Source: Escherichia coli (lineage in GTDB: Bacteria > Pseudomonadota > Gammaproteobacteria > Enterobacterales > Enterobacteriaceae). Taken from it: a stretch of 64,000 nucleotides of DNA. Below are positions 60,882-63,422 of this stretch, one piece after another. The position numbers and the translations under genes were made by a program. The DNA lies in assembly GCF_030013205.1 (NCBI RefSeq), contig NZ_CP122648.1; one strand, 5' to 3'. The notes below the pieces were generated by a model. It saw only the letters and a list, made by a program, of their open reading frames with translations, did no database searches and was not told the origin of the DNA. Within the stretch, counting starts at the first letter, position 1. Each line of letters starts with the position of its first letter.

Positions 60882-60931
60882 TTGACACTGTTTATTCATA
60901 CAGTTAAAAATAACACTGTATACAAACACAG
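60882..60931 (+). promoter_or_regulatory. SOS promoter: -35 TTGACA plus two tandem LexA boxes
   Basis: TTGACA at 60882-60887; CTGTttattcatACAG at 60888-60903 and CTGTatacaaacACAG at 60916-60931, both matching CTGT-N8-ACAG; ends 16 bp before the dinI-like ATG. Confidence 0.7.
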
Positions 60932-60946
60932 TGTAGAGGGATTTTT

Positions 60947-61195
60947 ATGCGTATTGAGATCTGCATAGCTAAAGAGAAAATGACTAAAATGCCAAGCGGT
61001 GCTGTGGATGCGTTAAAGGAAGAATTAACTCGACGCATCAGTAAGCGTTATGACGATGTAGAGGTGATCGTAAAAGCCACCAGCAACGATGGCCTTTCTG
61101 TTACGCGCACCGCCGATAAAGATTCAGCTAAAACTTTTGTTCAGGAAACTCTGAAAGATACCTGGGAGTCTGCTGACGAGTGGTTTGTTCATTAA
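60947..61195 (+). CDS. DinI-family SOS protein (DinI/Tum-like)
   Basis: 82 aa [32 protein letters not shown]...[17 protein letters not shown], alignable by eye to DinI (MRIE..IAK...GA.DAL..EL.RRI...TWESAD.WFV). Confidence 0.8.
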
Positions 61196-61226
61196 GTTCA
61201 TCATCTCTGGACACCATTCACTTGTA

Positions 61227-61255
61227 TTGACTTTAAGATCATTAAATTGTAATAA
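61227..61255 (+). promoter_or_regulatory. candidate sigma70 promoter for the ncRNA/RT operon
   Basis: TTGACT-N17-TAATAA with TG near -14; predicted start lies at the first inverted repeat. Confidence 0.4.
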
Positions 61256-61262
61256 TTCAAAA

Positions 61263-61397
61263 GGATGGGGCAGGTTTTTCCTCTTGTGCATGCAAGGGCG
61301 GCTCTGATAATGAACAGTAATATTTTACTGTTGAGCTTATGCTCACTGATCCTGCCGGGCAGGATGTTCAATGATTCCAATATATCCTGCCCCTTCC
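61263..61397 (+). ncRNA. candidate structured ncRNA (retron msr/msd-like) bounded by inverted repeats
   Basis: ggatggggcagg (61263-61274) and cctgccccttcc (61386-61397), 11/12 complementary; internal hairpins aacagtaa-tatt-ttactgtt (61313-61332) and atcctgcc-g-ggcaggat (61349-61365); no ORF. Confidence 0.3.
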
Positions 61398-61417
61398 GCT
61401 TTTAAAAAGGATCTTTT

Positions 61418-61969
61418 ATGCATGACAATATTTGGTTTACATATAAAGCCCGTATCCAAGCGCACCATCGACTAGAATGGCTTGAAAAGCACTCTCAATT
61501 TATCCTCGTTTGGTATGCTATATTGAGTGCGGTACTTTCAATTGTAACGTTGCGATTTCCAAAAGTTCTAGGAGATAACACAGATATCGTTGCGGCAATA
61601 CTTTCGGTGGCCCTACTGGGTATTTCGCTGATCGTATCTAACCTAGATTTTCGTGGTCGAGCAATAGCCATGAGAAGGAATTATATTGCACTACAGCGAC
61701 TCTATTTTGACATTACCACCAGTCAACAGTTAACTCTTGAACAGAAAGAAAAATATTTTAATTTGCTCAATGAGGTTGAGAATCACCGTGACATAGATGA
61801 TAAAATTTCAAGGGTAACTCAAGTTGGACTTACGACGAGGATCCCCACACAAAAAGAAAAAATAATTGTTATTTTATGGATATTACTTCGAATATTTACT
61901 ACTGCCGCCCTTTATATACTCCCATTAATATATCTTTGGATTGACTATGACTGCAAGCAGAATTTTTAA
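61418..61969 (+). CDS. small membrane protein, candidate effector (possibly SLATT-like)
   Basis: 183 aa; hydrophobic segments FILVWYAILSAVLSIVTL, IVAAILSVALLGISLIVSNL and IIVILWILLRIFTTAALYILPLIYLWI; RBS aaaaagga; 3-prime end overlaps RT start by 29 nt. Confidence 0.7.
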   Translation: MHDNIWFTYKARIQAHHRLEWLEKHSQFILVWYAILSAVLSIVTLRFPKVLGDNTDIVAAILSVALLGISLIVSNLDFRGRAIAMRRNYIALQRLYFDITTSQQLTLEQKEKYFNLLNEVENHRDIDDKISRVTQVGLTTRIPTQKEKIIVILWILLRIFTTAALYILPLIYLWIDYDCKQNF

Positions 61970-63317
61970 AAAGTCATTCTCGAAAAAAAACCTTCTAAAA
62001 GTATACACTGAAAAAATCAAAGAATCAGGAGCGATTGGCATAGATCGGATTCGCCCATCAAAACTTGATTTGACAATAAAAAATGAGATCGCTTTCATTT
62101 TTGAAAAGGTTAACTCTGGCAATTACAAATTTACAGCATATAAAGAAAAATTAATATCTAAAGGCGCTAACTCTACACCCAGACAGATTTCCATACCAAC
62201 TGCTAGGGACAGAATTACTCTTAGAGCTCTCTGTGAATGCCTTACGGAAATATATCCTAACTCCAGATTAAAACTACCACATACAGTAATTGACTCATTG
62301 AAAGAAGCATTAAACAGCAGTCTTTATGCTGAATATGCAAAAATAGATCTTAAAAGTTTCTATCCTTCAATTGAACATAAATTGATAATTAATGCAATAA
62401 AAAATAAAATTAGAAAAAAAGAAATTAGACAGTTAATAACATCATCATTAATCGTGCCTACTGTAAGTGGAACAACAGGAAGCAAAGGTATCCCGAATAA
62501 TACCAGAGGAGTACCTCAGGGATTAGCGATATCAAACATTTTAGCTGAAATATCACTATCTAATTTTGATGATGAAATCAATAAAATGCATGACATATGG
62601 TACATGCGATACGTTGATGACATTCTTATTTTAACACCAAAATATCAAGCAACAAAAATAGCTTCTCATATCATTGATAAGCTTCAATCATTAAATTTAA
62701 ACCCACATCCATTAAATGAAGAGAACTCAAAATCCAAAGTAGGCAGCTTGGATGAAAGTTTTAACTTTTTGGGATACCACATAGAAAATCGAGAATTATT
62801 GATAAAACATGAGAGCATTCTTAGATTTGAGTCATCTTTAGCAAGGATTTTTACTGCATACAGGCACGCTCTACTACAAGCTAAAAGTAAGCGTGATAAA
62901 GAACGAGCTGTTGCATATTGTCAGTGGAAACTAAATCTCAGAATTACGGGATGTGTGTTTGAAGGTAAACGATTGGGATGGGTATCGTACTTCTCACAAA
63001 TAACCTCAACAGCTCAACTTCGCTCTGTTAATCATACTATCAATAATCTTATCCGCCGATTCGGCCTTTCATCAGAAATAAAACCAAAGTCTTTGATTAA
63101 AACTTTCTATGAACTCCGCAGAGGTAGAGCGGAGACTTTTAAATACATACCTAACTTTGATAATTTACATATATCTCAGAAACGAGAACTTGTTTCTATG
63201 TGGATAGGTAAAGAGAAGGAAAAAAAACTTAGCAATAGTGAAATAGAGAGGAAGTTTAAATTTAAAATTGCGAAATCAGTAAAAGAGCTTGAAGAGGATA
63301 TCTCAGGAATATCATAG
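61941..63317 (+). CDS. reverse transcriptase (retron / Abi / DRT-class defence RT candidate)
   Basis: 458 aa; RT motifs in order: GIDRIR, PRQISIPTARDRITLRAL, DLKSFYPSIEH, GVPQGLAISNILAEISL, catalytic RYVDDILIL, FNFLGY; about 200-aa helical C-terminal extension. Confidence 0.85.
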   Translation: MTMTASRIFKKSFSKKNLLKVYTEKIKESGAIGIDRIRPSKLDLTIKNEIAFIFEKVNSGNYKFTAYKEKLISKGANSTPRQISIPTARDRITLRALCECLTEIYPNSRLKLPHTVIDSLKEALNSSLYAEYAKIDLKSFYPSIEHKLIINAIKNKIRKKEIRQLITSSLIVPTVSGTTGSKGIPNNTRGVPQGLAISNILAEISLSNFDDEINKMHDIWYMRYVDDILILTPKYQATKIASHIIDKLQSLNLNPHPLNEENSKSKVGSLDESFNFLGYHIENRELLIKHESILRFESSLARIFTAYRHALLQAKSKRDKERAVAYCQWKLNLRITGCVFEGKRLGWVSYFSQITSTAQLRSVNHTINNLIRRFGLSSEIKPKSLIKTFYELRRGRAETFKYIPNFDNLHISQKRELVSMWIGKEKEKKLSNSEIERKFKFKIAKSVKELEEDISGIS

Positions 63318-63380
63318 ATATGTAATCCATTAAGTCCTTTAAATATACCGCAATAAACACACTATTTAAACTCACAAACC

Positions 63381-63422
63381 AGCCGCAGTATCCTGCCATG
63401 GCAAGTTACTGCGGCTTTTTAT
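63381..63422 (+). terminator. rho-independent terminator after the RT gene
   Basis: hairpin agccgcagta...tactgcggct followed by a T-run. Confidence 0.7.

What the first reader, a model, noticed from the sequence alone, without database searches (positions are those of the whole stretch)
60882..63422. Reverse transcriptase plus small membrane protein module with DinI-like SOS gene, inserted beyond prfC: candidate anti-phage system
A 458-aa ORF carries RT motifs in canonical order, including the catalytic YVDD box, yet no group II intron or transposon context is visible. Immediately upstream, with a 29-nt overlap suggesting translational coupling, is a 183-aa protein with three hydrophobic segments. 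Before both lies a promoter-like element and a structured non-coding region, and further upstream a DinI-family gene behind two consensus LexA boxes. This architecture (ncRNA, small membrane effector, RT) matches retrons with membrane effectors and some Abi/DRT reverse-transcriptase systems. From memory, K-12 has none of these genes adjacent to prfC. The RT is longer than classical retron RTs and has YVDD rather than YADD, so it may be an unclassified variant.
Basis: partly seen in the sequence, partly recalled or inferred. Interest (0 to 1): 0.88.

Follow-up and report, generated by a model that had tools for sequence, protein, structure and literature searches.

The report
Known DRT10 anti-phage reverse transcriptase system
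This is an exact copy of Eco3DRT10, a published E. coli anti-phage system in which a reverse transcriptase copies a short RNA template into long tandem-repeat DNA and works with a small membrane protein; it is real and intact but not new.

Summary

- **Anatomy.** Window 61196-63371 is a 2.2-kb, AT-rich cassette holding a promoter, a 137-nt structured ncRNA (61263-61399), a SLATT_5 membrane protein (61418-61969) and a UG17-family RT (61947-63317).
- **ncRNA match.** It carries the published template CAAU-GAUUC-CAAU at the published positions (nt 107-119) and has five stem-loops. Covariation across 19 loci supports the fold (18 of 35 pairs show compensatory changes).
- **Published mechanism.** DRT10 (UG17) makes Ser456-primed (GAATCATTG)n single-stranded DNA by a telomerase-like cycle. 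It needs the ncRNA, RT and SLATT protein to defend against phage.
- **Context.** The cassette is cargo in a lambdoid prophage between prfC and yjjG. It sits in a variable slot between a LexA-controlled dinI-like gene and the tail-fibre genes.
- **DinI-like gene.** It belongs to the prophage backbone, not to DRT10.
- **Rejected.** Retron, group II intron and DGR readings all fail their tests.
- **One open point.** The dinI-like gene has no terminator before the cassette, so SOS-driven read-through is possible but untested.

The parts
60882..60911 (+). Sigma-70-like promoter of the dinI-like gene (TTGACA-18-AAAAAT). Prophage backbone, not part of DRT10.
   Evidence: 10 of 12 matches
60888..60903 (.). 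LexA box 1 (CTGTTTATTCATACAG), overlapping the promoter spacer
   Evidence: one of only two CTGT-N8-ACAG sites in the 64-kb window
60916..60931 (.). LexA box 2 (CTGTATACAAACACAG), just downstream of the -10 element
60947..61195 (+). dinI-like gene (82 aa). It is a neighbour from the prophage backbone. No terminator separates it from the cassette.
   Evidence: PHROG 189, E = 5.8e-31; WP_001217550.1, DinI-like family; no hairpin in 61190-61262
61196..63371 (+). DRT10 cassette as a whole: 2176 bp, 31-40% G+C against about 50% in the flanks
   Evidence: homology to DRT10-less prophages L030 and L031 stops at 61195 and resumes at 63372 (L031). Composition.
61227..61256 (+). ncRNA promoter (TTGACT-18-AATAAT with extended -10 TG). 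It ends 6 nt before ncRNA position 1.
   Evidence: Independent ncRNA transcription was shown for a related UG17-A system.
61263..61399 (+). 137-nt DRT10 ncRNA. SL1 is the basal stem (1-12 with 124-135). SL2 is 17-39, Loop A is 40-50, SL3 is 51-70, SL4 is 71-82, SL5 is 87-103, and Loop B is 104-123.
   Evidence: z = -4.66; 35 pairs, 18 compensatory, 96.4% of cells paired against about 50% when slid. Published numbering matches: G44 = 61306, G111 = 61373, A = nt 107-110.
61369..61377 (+). Template A-B (CAAU-GAUUC). Its reverse complement is the published cDNA repeat GAATCATTG.
61378..61381 (+). Realignment segment A' (CAAU)
   Evidence: CAA...CAA sits at fixed alignment columns in 18 of 19 loci.
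61418..61969 (+). SLATT_5 membrane effector, 183 aa with three hydrophobic segments
   Evidence: RTasSLATT, E = 7.9e-57; NF033631, 132.9 bits against a cutoff of 60; PF18160, 5.5e-28
61947..63317 (+). UG17/DRT10 reverse transcriptase, 456 aa. The 458-aa form from TTG 61941 is the OKX54664.1 annotation.
   Evidence: RT_UG17, E = 5.9e-159, profile 1-429 of 429; exact identity to OKX54664.1
62610..62621 (+). Catalytic YVDD (residues 222-225)
   Evidence: invariant in 23 sequences
63312..63314 (+). Codon of Ser456, the last residue and the published protein-priming residue
   Evidence: invariant
63381..63420 (+). Intrinsic terminator: a 10-bp stem with an inner stem, followed by UUUUUAU. It is shared with cassette-less prophages, where it follows the dinI-like gene.
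   Evidence: -21.3 kcal/mol, z = -5.55

Best explanation
The locus is Eco3DRT10, a class 2 UG/Abi (UG17, subtype A-like, SLATT-then-RT order) defence-associated reverse transcriptase system. It is carried as cargo by a lambdoid prophage inserted between prfC and yjjG.

**How it works, as published for this same RT**
1. Its own promoter makes a 137-nt ncRNA.
2. Two RT monomers bind one ncRNA.
3. The monomer on Loop B starts DNA synthesis from the hydroxyl of its own C-terminal Ser456.
4. It copies CAAUGAUUC and stops at the boundary set by SL5.
5. The nascent DNA then unpairs and re-pairs with the downstream CAAU.
6. Repeating this cycle makes kilobase-long (GAATCATTG)n single-stranded DNA, as telomerase does.
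7. The monomer on Loop A makes only abortive products of about 10 nt.

**What is shown for a related DRT10 (the Escherichia sp. E3659 UG17-A system):** host exonuclease I (SbcB) keeps the DNA products tolerable.

**What is inferred, and still disputed between the two groups:** phage infection, through SSB-like phage proteins that disturb single-stranded DNA metabolism, changes the amount or state of the repeat DNA. That change switches the SLATT protein into a membrane-damaging state, which aborts the infection.
For: - **RT family.** The RT_UG17 profile matches end to end at E = 5.9e-159; the next best model is Drt3a at 3e-37.
- **Identity.** The 458-aa ORF is exactly OKX54664.1. Ramirez et al. 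2026 name that accession as the Eco3DRT10 RT and note its two extra N-terminal residues.
- **Effector.** A SLATT_5 protein overlaps the RT start.
- **ncRNA.**
  - It folds with z = -4.66.
  - It has five stem-loops, with SL1 75% GC and SL3 25% GC as published.
  - In 19 loci whose RTs are 59-84% identical, 18 of 35 pairs show compensatory changes.
  - 96.4% of cells are paired, against 49-54% when partners are slid, and 0 of 500 shuffles reach the observed values.
- **Template.** CAATGATTCCAAT at 61369-61381 equals the published A-B-A' at nt 107-119 and the published product GAATCATTG. G44 and G111 fall on G.
- **Catalytic and priming residues.** YVDD and the terminal Ser456 are invariant.
- **Published function.** Defence, tandem-repeat cDNA, serine priming and the 2:1 cryo-EM architecture are reported for Eco3DRT10. 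The SbcB and SSB-like trigger results come from a related UG17-A system.
- **Mobility.** The cassette is prophage cargo in a variable slot. Homologues sit in prophages, P4-like or integrase islands, and next to a restriction-modification system.
Against: - Nothing in the sequence contradicts this reading.
- I could not retrieve the sequence of the Eco3DRT10 expression plasmid, because the stored supplementary tables are cut. Identity of the ncRNA and SLATT to the tested construct therefore rests on matching numbering and features, not on a direct alignment.
- The A-B-A' repeat is not significant on its own in any single sequence (shuffle fractions 0.02-0.87). Its weight comes from its fixed position across loci and from the published product.
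- The step from repeat DNA to SLATT activation is unresolved. Tang et al. saw less cDNA on infection and proposed that the cDNA restrains SLATT. Sanchez-Nieto et al. saw more cDNA and proposed that accumulation activates SLATT.
- All three DRT10 papers are preprints.
Confidence: 0.96

Rival explanations
1. The dinI-like gene and its LexA-controlled promoter are functionally tied to the RT module. DNA damage or prophage induction would drive read-through transcription into the ncRNA, SLATT and RT genes, making DRT10 output SOS-responsive. This would add to the DRT10 reading rather than replace it.
For: - No terminator or stable hairpin lies between the dinI stop codon (61195) and the ncRNA (-3 kcal/mol, z = +1.84).
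- In cassette-less prophages the dinI-like gene is followed within about 60-250 bp by the hairpin that here follows the RT. The cassette was therefore inserted inside the dinI transcription unit.
- DinI + SLATT + RT travel together in E. coli prophages at other chromosomal sites, at about 96.7% identity (H16-H25).
- DRT10 biology is already linked to single-stranded DNA metabolism through SbcB and an SSB-like trigger.
Against: - RT homologues in Serratia, Xenorhabdus, Klebsiella, Pantoea, Pectobacterium and Enterobacter have no dinI next to them.
- The ncRNA has its own promoter, and a related system transcribes its ncRNA independently.
- The dinI-like gene is present in more than 3000 E. coli genomes, most of which lack the cassette.
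- Adjacency is explained simply by a cargo slot at the prophage end.
Confidence: 0.2
2. It is a retron: the RT would make branched msDNA from an msr/msd RNA, which restrains a two-transmembrane effector.
For: The gene layout (ncRNA, small membrane protein, RT) resembles retrons with transmembrane effectors. Some database entries name homologues 'retron-type RT'.
Against: - The retron RT model NF038233 scores 58.8 bits against a cutoff of 235.
- The best PADLOC model is UG17, ahead of the next model by more than 100 orders of magnitude in E-value.
- No inverted repeats of 20 nt or more lie around the ncRNA.
- No Rfam RNA family matches this region, retron families included.
- The published product is protein-primed linear repeat DNA, not msDNA.
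Confidence: 0.01
3. It is a mobile-element RT from a group II intron or a diversity-generating retroelement.
For: There is a weak match to the group II intron RT/maturase model (143.5 bits) and a marginal GIIM hit (E = 0.16).
Against: - The TIGR04416 score is below its cutoff of 300.
- No group II intron RNA appears in the Rfam scan of the whole window.
- No template/variable repeat pair exists: the longest direct repeats are 20-23 nt at 70-85% identity.
- No Avd-like accessory gene is present.
Confidence: 0.01
4. The cassette is an inactive relic inside a decaying prophage.
For: In the 100%-identical strain K_EC180 the surrounding prophage carries several pseudogenes, including a frameshifted tail-tip gene and a partial rusA. 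At least one other strain carries an IS1-disrupted copy (H57).
Against: - Both ORFs are intact.
- The RT is identical to the protein shown to be active.
- The promoter, all five stems and the template are intact.
- The same 456-aa protein occurs on 377 contigs, and 187 of 5426 complete E. coli genomes keep the cassette full-length at 90% identity or more.
Confidence: 0.03

Closest known systems
Eco3DRT10 (Tang et al. 2025, PMC12632851; Ramirez et al. 2026, bioRxiv 10.64898/2026.06.29.735271)
   Same: - RT sequence identical (OKX54664.1).
- 137-nt ncRNA with the same template (CAAU-GAUUC-CAAU at nt 107-119), the same G44 and G111, and five stem-loops.
- SLATT gene overlaps the RT start.
- Terminal Ser456 and YVDD.
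   Different: None detected. I could not align the ncRNA and SLATT gene directly with the authors' plasmid.
DRT10 of Escherichia sp. E3659 (UG17-A; Sanchez-Nieto et al. 2026, bioRxiv 10.64898/2026.04.29.721553)
   Same: - Same tripartite order: ncRNA, then SLATT, then RT.
- Same repeat-addition logic, with short direct repeats flanking the template.
   Different: - Different template: ACUUAUUACU, giving a 7-nt AGTAATA repeat, against a 9-nt repeat here.
- 143-nt ncRNA drawn with six stem-loops.
- The SbcB dependence and the SSB-like trigger were shown in that system, not in this one.
DRT9 (UG28) and DRT2 (UG2), other class 2 UG reverse transcriptase defence systems
   Same: - Upstream ncRNA carrying a short template.
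- Repetitive cDNA synthesis.
- Protein priming in DRT9.
   Different: - DRT9 makes poly-dA from a poly-U template, primes from tyrosine and forms a hexamer.
- DRT2 does rolling-circle copying to assemble a gene and has no SLATT partner.
- PADLOC scores here are far lower: Drt9 6.3e-20 and Drt2 5.8e-25.
Telomerase (TERT plus telomerase RNA)
   Same: A short internal RNA template with an alignment segment, a structured 5' template boundary, and processive repeat addition (analogy and phylogeny argued in PMC12632851).
   Different: - Priming is from a protein serine rather than a chromosome end.
- The RT is 456 aa against about 1100 aa.
- Two RT monomers bind each RNA.
- The role is defence rather than chromosome maintenance.
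Retrons with transmembrane effectors
   Same: ncRNA plus RT plus small membrane protein, with an abortive-infection style of defence.
   Different: The RT clade, the RNA architecture and the DNA product all differ. Membership tests are not met.
RT-SLATT locus of uropathogenic E. coli H120 (Rousset et al. 2021, as cited in PMC9226505 and in Sanchez-Nieto et al.)
   Same: A prophage-encoded UG17 RT with a SLATT protein, which makes sbcB essential.
   Different: It is placed in subtype UG17-B, with the order RT-then-SLATT and a gap of about 200 bp. Here the order is SLATT-then-RT with overlap.

Membership tests
DRT10 / UG17 (class 2 UG/Abi RT defence system) | RT belongs to the UG17 clade | tested here: met
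   PADLOC RT_UG17 E = 5.9e-159 over profile 1-429 of 429; the next model scores 3e-37. Exact identity to OKX54664.1, the Eco3DRT10 RT.
DRT10 / UG17 (class 2 UG/Abi RT defence system) | Adjacent SLATT_5 protein, tightly coupled to the RT gene | tested here: met
   RTasSLATT E = 7.9e-57. NF033631 scores 132.9 bits against a cutoff of 60. PF18160 scores 5.5e-28. The genes overlap by 23-29 nt.
DRT10 / UG17 (class 2 UG/Abi RT defence system) | Conserved structured ncRNA upstream of the SLATT gene | tested here: met
   z = -4.66. Of 35 consensus pairs, 18 have compensatory changes; 96.4% of cells are paired against about 50% when slid.
DRT10 / UG17 (class 2 UG/Abi RT defence system) | A-B-A' repeat in the template loop, directly 3' of a stable stem-loop | tested here: met
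   CAAT-GATTC-CAAT lies at 61369-61381, 3 nt after SL5. CAA...CAA occupies fixed columns in 18 of 19 loci. Caveat: the repeat is not significant in any single sequence on its own.
DRT10 / UG17 (class 2 UG/Abi RT defence system) | Conserved C-terminal priming residue (Ser456 in the Eco3 type) and catalytic YVDD | tested here: met
   S456 and Y222-D225 are invariant in 23 sequences.
DRT10 / UG17 (class 2 UG/Abi RT defence system) | [quoted passage not shown] | not testable with these tools
   Reported for the identical RT in PMC12632851 and 10.64898/2026.06.29.735271.
DRT10 / UG17 (class 2 UG/Abi RT defence system) | Phage defence that needs the RT, the SLATT protein and the ncRNA | not testable with these tools
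   Reported for Eco3DRT10 and for the E3659 system.
Retron | RT of the retron clade | tested here: not met
   NF038233 scores 58.8 bits against a cutoff of 235. The best PADLOC model is UG17.
Retron | msr/msd RNA flanked by inverted repeats (a1/a2) | tested here: not met
   No inverted repeats of 20 nt or more in 58500-64000. No Rfam match in 60750-61450.
Group II intron | Intron RT/maturase above the family cutoff, plus the intron ribozyme RNA | tested here: not met
   TIGR04416 scores 143.5 bits against a cutoff of 300. GIIM E = 0.16. No intron RNA in the Rfam scan of the window.
Diversity-generating retroelement | Template repeat and variable repeat pair near the RT | tested here: not met
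   Only direct repeats of 20-23 nt at 70-85% identity were found.
DinI (SOS-regulated RecA modulator) | DinI-family protein behind LexA operator(s) | tested here: met
   PHROG 189 E = 5.8e-31. Two CTGT-N8-ACAG boxes lie on the promoter. The gene scores below the equivalog cutoff (73 against 111 bits), so it is a prophage DinI-like paralogue.

The most novel reading that the evidence does not exclude
The DRT10 cassette was inserted inside the transcription unit of a LexA-repressed, prophage-borne dinI-like gene, upstream of that gene's terminator. DNA damage or prophage induction would then raise ncRNA, SLATT and RT levels by read-through. This would link the SOS response to a defence system whose trigger already involves single-stranded DNA metabolism (SbcB, phage SSB-like proteins). 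None of the DRT10 text I read (parts of three preprints) examines such a regulatory layer.
Probability: 0.2. Interest if true: 0.4.

Novelty: already known. Interest (0 to 1): 0.12.

Why it matters
As a discovery it adds nothing. The system was classified as UG17 in 2019-2022, named DRT10 in 2025, and this exact RT has cryo-EM structures described in a 2026 preprint.

The useful results are practical:
- The window carries a native, intact copy of the reference DRT10 system, with its borders now defined (61196-63371).
- Its native setting is a cargo slot of a prfC-adjacent lambdoid prophage, directly downstream of a LexA-controlled dinI-like gene with no terminator between them.
- That setting suggests one cheap experiment on SOS control of DRT10, which the text of the DRT10 preprints I read does not report.

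Tried and rejected
- **Supplement searches.** I searched the Tang et al. supplements for 'Eco3DRT10', the WP accessions and the template sequence. I found nothing, because the stored tables are cut and the name carries subscript markup. Searching for peptide strings instead found near-identical E. coli entries (UG17_locus_457 and 495), but not the Eco3 label. Identity was settled later through OKX54664.
- **Rfam.** No family covers the ncRNA at the gathering or E-value thresholds; the only hit is a chance snoRNA match at E = 0.67.
- **PDB sequence search.** No DRT10 chain is in the copy available. The best matches are a group II intron RT (3e-14) and Drt3a (2e-9), and the SLATT protein has no match. 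I therefore ran no structure prediction, since the cryo-EM structures are described in the preprint.
- **Sequenced phages (INPHARED).** There is no DNA match even in 'distant' mode. The cassette is known only from prophages and islands.
- **A-B-A' shuffle test.** A test per sequence is not significant, so I do not use the repeat as independent statistical evidence.
- **Other readings.** Retron, group II intron and DGR were each tested and rejected.
- **DinI-like as a fourth component.** Rejected as a family feature because it is absent next to homologues in six other genera. It is kept only as a possible local regulatory link.
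Full report
**1. Observation**

- **ORFs.** The ORF list gives a 458-aa ORF at 61941..63317 (+, TTG start). A 183-aa ORF at 61418..61969 (+) overlaps it by 29 nt. 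An 82-aa ORF lies at 60947..61195 (+). prfC is on the minus strand at 59141..60754.
- **RT.** It has Pfam RVT_1 over residues 74-281 and YVDD at 62610-62621.
- **Small protein.** It has three hydrophobic segments, at residues 25-48, 54-79 and 147-175.
- **Promoter and non-coding stretch.** A promoter-like site, TTGACT-18-AATAAT with a TG extension, lies at 61227-61256. The stretch after it folds far better than shuffles do: -54 kcal/mol, z = -4.66.
- **LexA boxes.** Two CTGT-N8-ACAG sites at 60888-60903 and 60916-60931 are the only two in the 64-kb window, against 0.61 expected. Both sit on the dinI-like promoter.

**2. What the proteins are**

- **RT.** It matches the PADLOC RT_UG17 profile end to end (E = 5.9e-159, profile 1-429 of 429). 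Drt3a follows at 3e-37. It falls below the curated cutoffs for group II intron RT (143.5 against 300 bits), Drt3a, Drt2, retron St85 RT (58.8 against 235) and Drt4.
- **Small protein.** It is an RT-associated SLATT protein: PADLOC E = 7.9e-57, NCBIfam SLATT_5 132.9 bits against a cutoff of 60, and Pfam SLATT_5 at 5.5e-28.
- **82-aa protein.** It is DinI-like: PHROG 189 at 5.8e-31, but below the NCBIfam DinI equivalog cutoff.

**3. Literature**

UG17 is now called DRT10.
- **Tang et al. 2025 (PMC12632851).**
  - Three E. coli UG17 operons defend against BASEL phages and need the RT, the SLATT protein and an upstream ncRNA.
  - For Eco3DRT10 the ncRNA is 137 nt and the RT is 456 aa.
  - The product is protein-primed (Ser456) single-stranded DNA made of tandem 5'-GAATCATTG-3' repeats.
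  - It is templated by an A-B-A' motif with A at nt 107-110 and A' at nt 116-119, just 3' of a stem-loop that sets the template boundary.
- **Ramirez et al. 2026.** They add cryo-EM structures showing two RT monomers on one pseudo-symmetric ncRNA. The ncRNA has five stem-loops (SL1 75% GC, SL3 25% GC). Loop A carries G44 and gives abortive products of about 10 nt; Loop B carries G111 and gives the long repeats. They also state that the Eco3 RT is NCBI OKX54664, annotated with two extra N-terminal residues.
- **Sanchez-Nieto et al. 2026.** They define subtypes UG17-A, B and C. For an Escherichia sp. [quoted passage not shown]

**4. Identity with Eco3DRT10**

- **Exact match.** An exact-sequence look-up shows that the window's 458-aa ORF is OKX54664.1. 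The 456-aa form from ATG 61947 occurs on 377 contigs. RefSeq annotates the 456-aa form as WP_000127306.1.
- **Template.** The window holds CAATGATTCCAAT at 61369-61381. Placing A at nt 107 puts ncRNA position 1 at 61263, six bases after the -10 element, and position 137 at 61399.
- **Numbering checks.** With that numbering G44 is 61306 and G111 is 61373, and both are G.
- **Fold.**
  - The minimum-energy fold has a basal stem (1-12 with 124-135) and a 4-nt gap.
  - Then come SL2, an 11-nt Loop A, an AU-rich SL3, SL4, SL5 and a 20-nt Loop B. This matches the published description.
- **Limit.** I could not align the ncRNA and SLATT gene directly with the authors' plasmid, because the stored supplementary tables are cut. 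Near-identical E. coli RT and SLATT sequences are in their Table S1.

**5. Independent tests of the RNA and the RT**

- **RT alignment.** I aligned the RT with 22 homologues (59-84% identity) from Enterobacterales, Aeromonas and Pseudomonas. YVDD and the terminal Ser456 are invariant.
- **Covariation.**
  - RNAalifold predicts the same five helices.
  - Of 35 pairs, 18 carry compensatory changes.
  - With the structure fixed, 96.4% of cells pair, against 49-54% when partners are slid by 1-3 columns.
  - None of 500 shuffles reaches the observed values on any of the five measures.
- **Template loop.** Its sequence varies between loci but keeps CAA...CAA at fixed columns with 9-11 nt spacing in 18 of 19 loci.
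- **Caveat.** A repeat of this size in a 24-nt loop is common in shuffles (fractions 0.02-0.87). It counts only together with its fixed position and the published product.

**6. Genomic setting**

- **Prophage.** The 3.2 kb around the locus is 100% identical to E. coli K_EC180 and several ETEC strains, and 99.9% identical to IHE3034 and CE10. In K_EC180 the genes lie at one end of a lambdoid prophage of about 24.5 kb, between prfC and yjjG. That prophage carries tail fibre genes, Lom, holins, Q, KilA-N, a repressor pair and a tyrosine integrase next to yjjG, plus several pseudogenes.
- **Cassette borders.**
  - Related prophages at the yecD and dusA sites have the dinI-like gene followed almost directly by the next backbone gene.
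  - Homology to them stops at the dinI stop codon (61195) and resumes at 63372 (L031) or 63434 (L030).
  - The cassette is therefore 61196-63371.
- **Composition.** Its G+C content is 31-40%, against about 50% in the flanks.
- **Variable slot.** Prophages at the same prfC site in other strains carry different genes in this slot, for example YnaM/YdfK plus a recombinase, or hypothetical proteins.
- **Frequency.** The cassette occurs full-length at 90% identity or more in 187 of 5426 complete E. coli genomes, always on the chromosome. It is absent from the sequenced-phage collection.
- **Homologues elsewhere.** They lie in lambda-like and P2-like prophage tail regions, in integrase/AlpA islands, in a P4-like element and next to a restriction-modification system.

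**7. The dinI-like gene**

- **Backbone gene.** It is not a DRT10 component. More than 3000 E. coli genomes have it, most without the cassette. No homologue in other genera has it adjacent.
- **Possible link.**
  - The 67 nt between its stop codon and the ncRNA have no hairpin.
  - The strong terminator that follows the dinI-like gene in cassette-less prophages now follows the RT: 63381-63420, -21.3 kcal/mol, z = -5.55.
- **Inference.** Read-through from the LexA-controlled promoter into the cassette is therefore possible. This is an inference only.

**8. Rivals**

- **Retron.** The RT model scores below its cutoff, there are no flanking inverted repeats and no Rfam match, and the published product is not msDNA.
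- **Group II intron.** The RT scores below the cutoff and no intron RNA is present.
- **DGR.** There is no template/variable repeat pair.
- **Inactive relic.** This is unlikely given intact ORFs, RNA and promoter, and identity to the tested RT.

**9. Mechanism, with status of each step**

- **Shown in the preprints for this RT:**
  - binding of the ncRNA;
  - the 2:1 complex;
  - Ser456 priming;
  - copying of CAAUGAUUC;
  - realignment on CAAU;
  - kilobase-long repeat ssDNA;
  - the requirement for the RT, the SLATT protein and the ncRNA in defence.
- **Shown for a related DRT10:** SbcB dependence and the SSB-like phage trigger.
- **Inferred and disputed:** how the repeat DNA controls the SLATT protein. 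One model has the cDNA restraining SLATT until infection lowers it. The other has cDNA accumulation activating SLATT. My working reading is that a phage-induced change in ssDNA handling alters the state of the repeat DNA, and the SLATT protein then damages the membrane and aborts infection.

**10. Verdict**

The system is already known, and this is the reference member itself. Interest as a new finding is low. The only untested idea that emerges is SOS read-through from the dinI-like promoter.

Noticed in passing
window 61190-61262 and 63381-63420: The dinI-like gene has no terminator before the DRT10 cassette. The hairpin that terminates it in cassette-less prophages now lies after the RT, so the cassette sits inside a LexA-controlled transcription unit.
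   Followed up: partly
window 61196-63371, compared with L030, L031, L032, L033: The slot between the dinI-like gene and the tail-fibre genes of these lambdoid prophages is variable. It is empty at the yecD and dusA sites. At the same prfC site in other strains it holds YnaM/YdfK plus a recombinase, or hypothetical genes.
   Followed up: partly
window 63425-63727 (-): A membrane protein of 95-100 aa and unknown function (PHROG 1443, E = 3.9e-58) is the last gene of the prophage tail-fibre region. It is conserved in prophages with and without the cassette.
   Followed up: partly
window 61941-61947: The longest ORF starts at TTG 61941 (458 aa, as in GenBank OKX54664.1). Homologues and RefSeq start at ATG 61947 (456 aa). 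Ramirez et al. 2026 note the same misannotation.
   Followed up: yes
L007 (Pseudomonas brassicae) and L014 (P. crudilactis), template loops: These two homologues lack the conserved CAA...CAA pair in the template loop: L007 has TAA...CAA, and L014 has CAC...CTA. They may use another register or be impaired.
   Followed up: no
NZ_CP025851.1 3287657-3293118 (hit H57): In E. coli strain 510016 the SLATT gene is annotated twice with an IS1A transposase between the pieces, which suggests an IS1-disrupted DRT10 copy.
   Followed up: no
window 55403-55784: Four tandem matches to Rfam naRNA4 (RF02564) lie about 101 nt apart on the minus strand, between yjjV and yjjW according to the K_EC180 annotation.
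   Followed up: no
window 10026-10178, 11563-11640, 25304-25423: There are Rfam matches to the sok antitoxin RNA (+), tpke11 (-) and the threonine operon leader (-). The window therefore runs across the conventional start of the E. coli map in reverse orientation.
   Followed up: no
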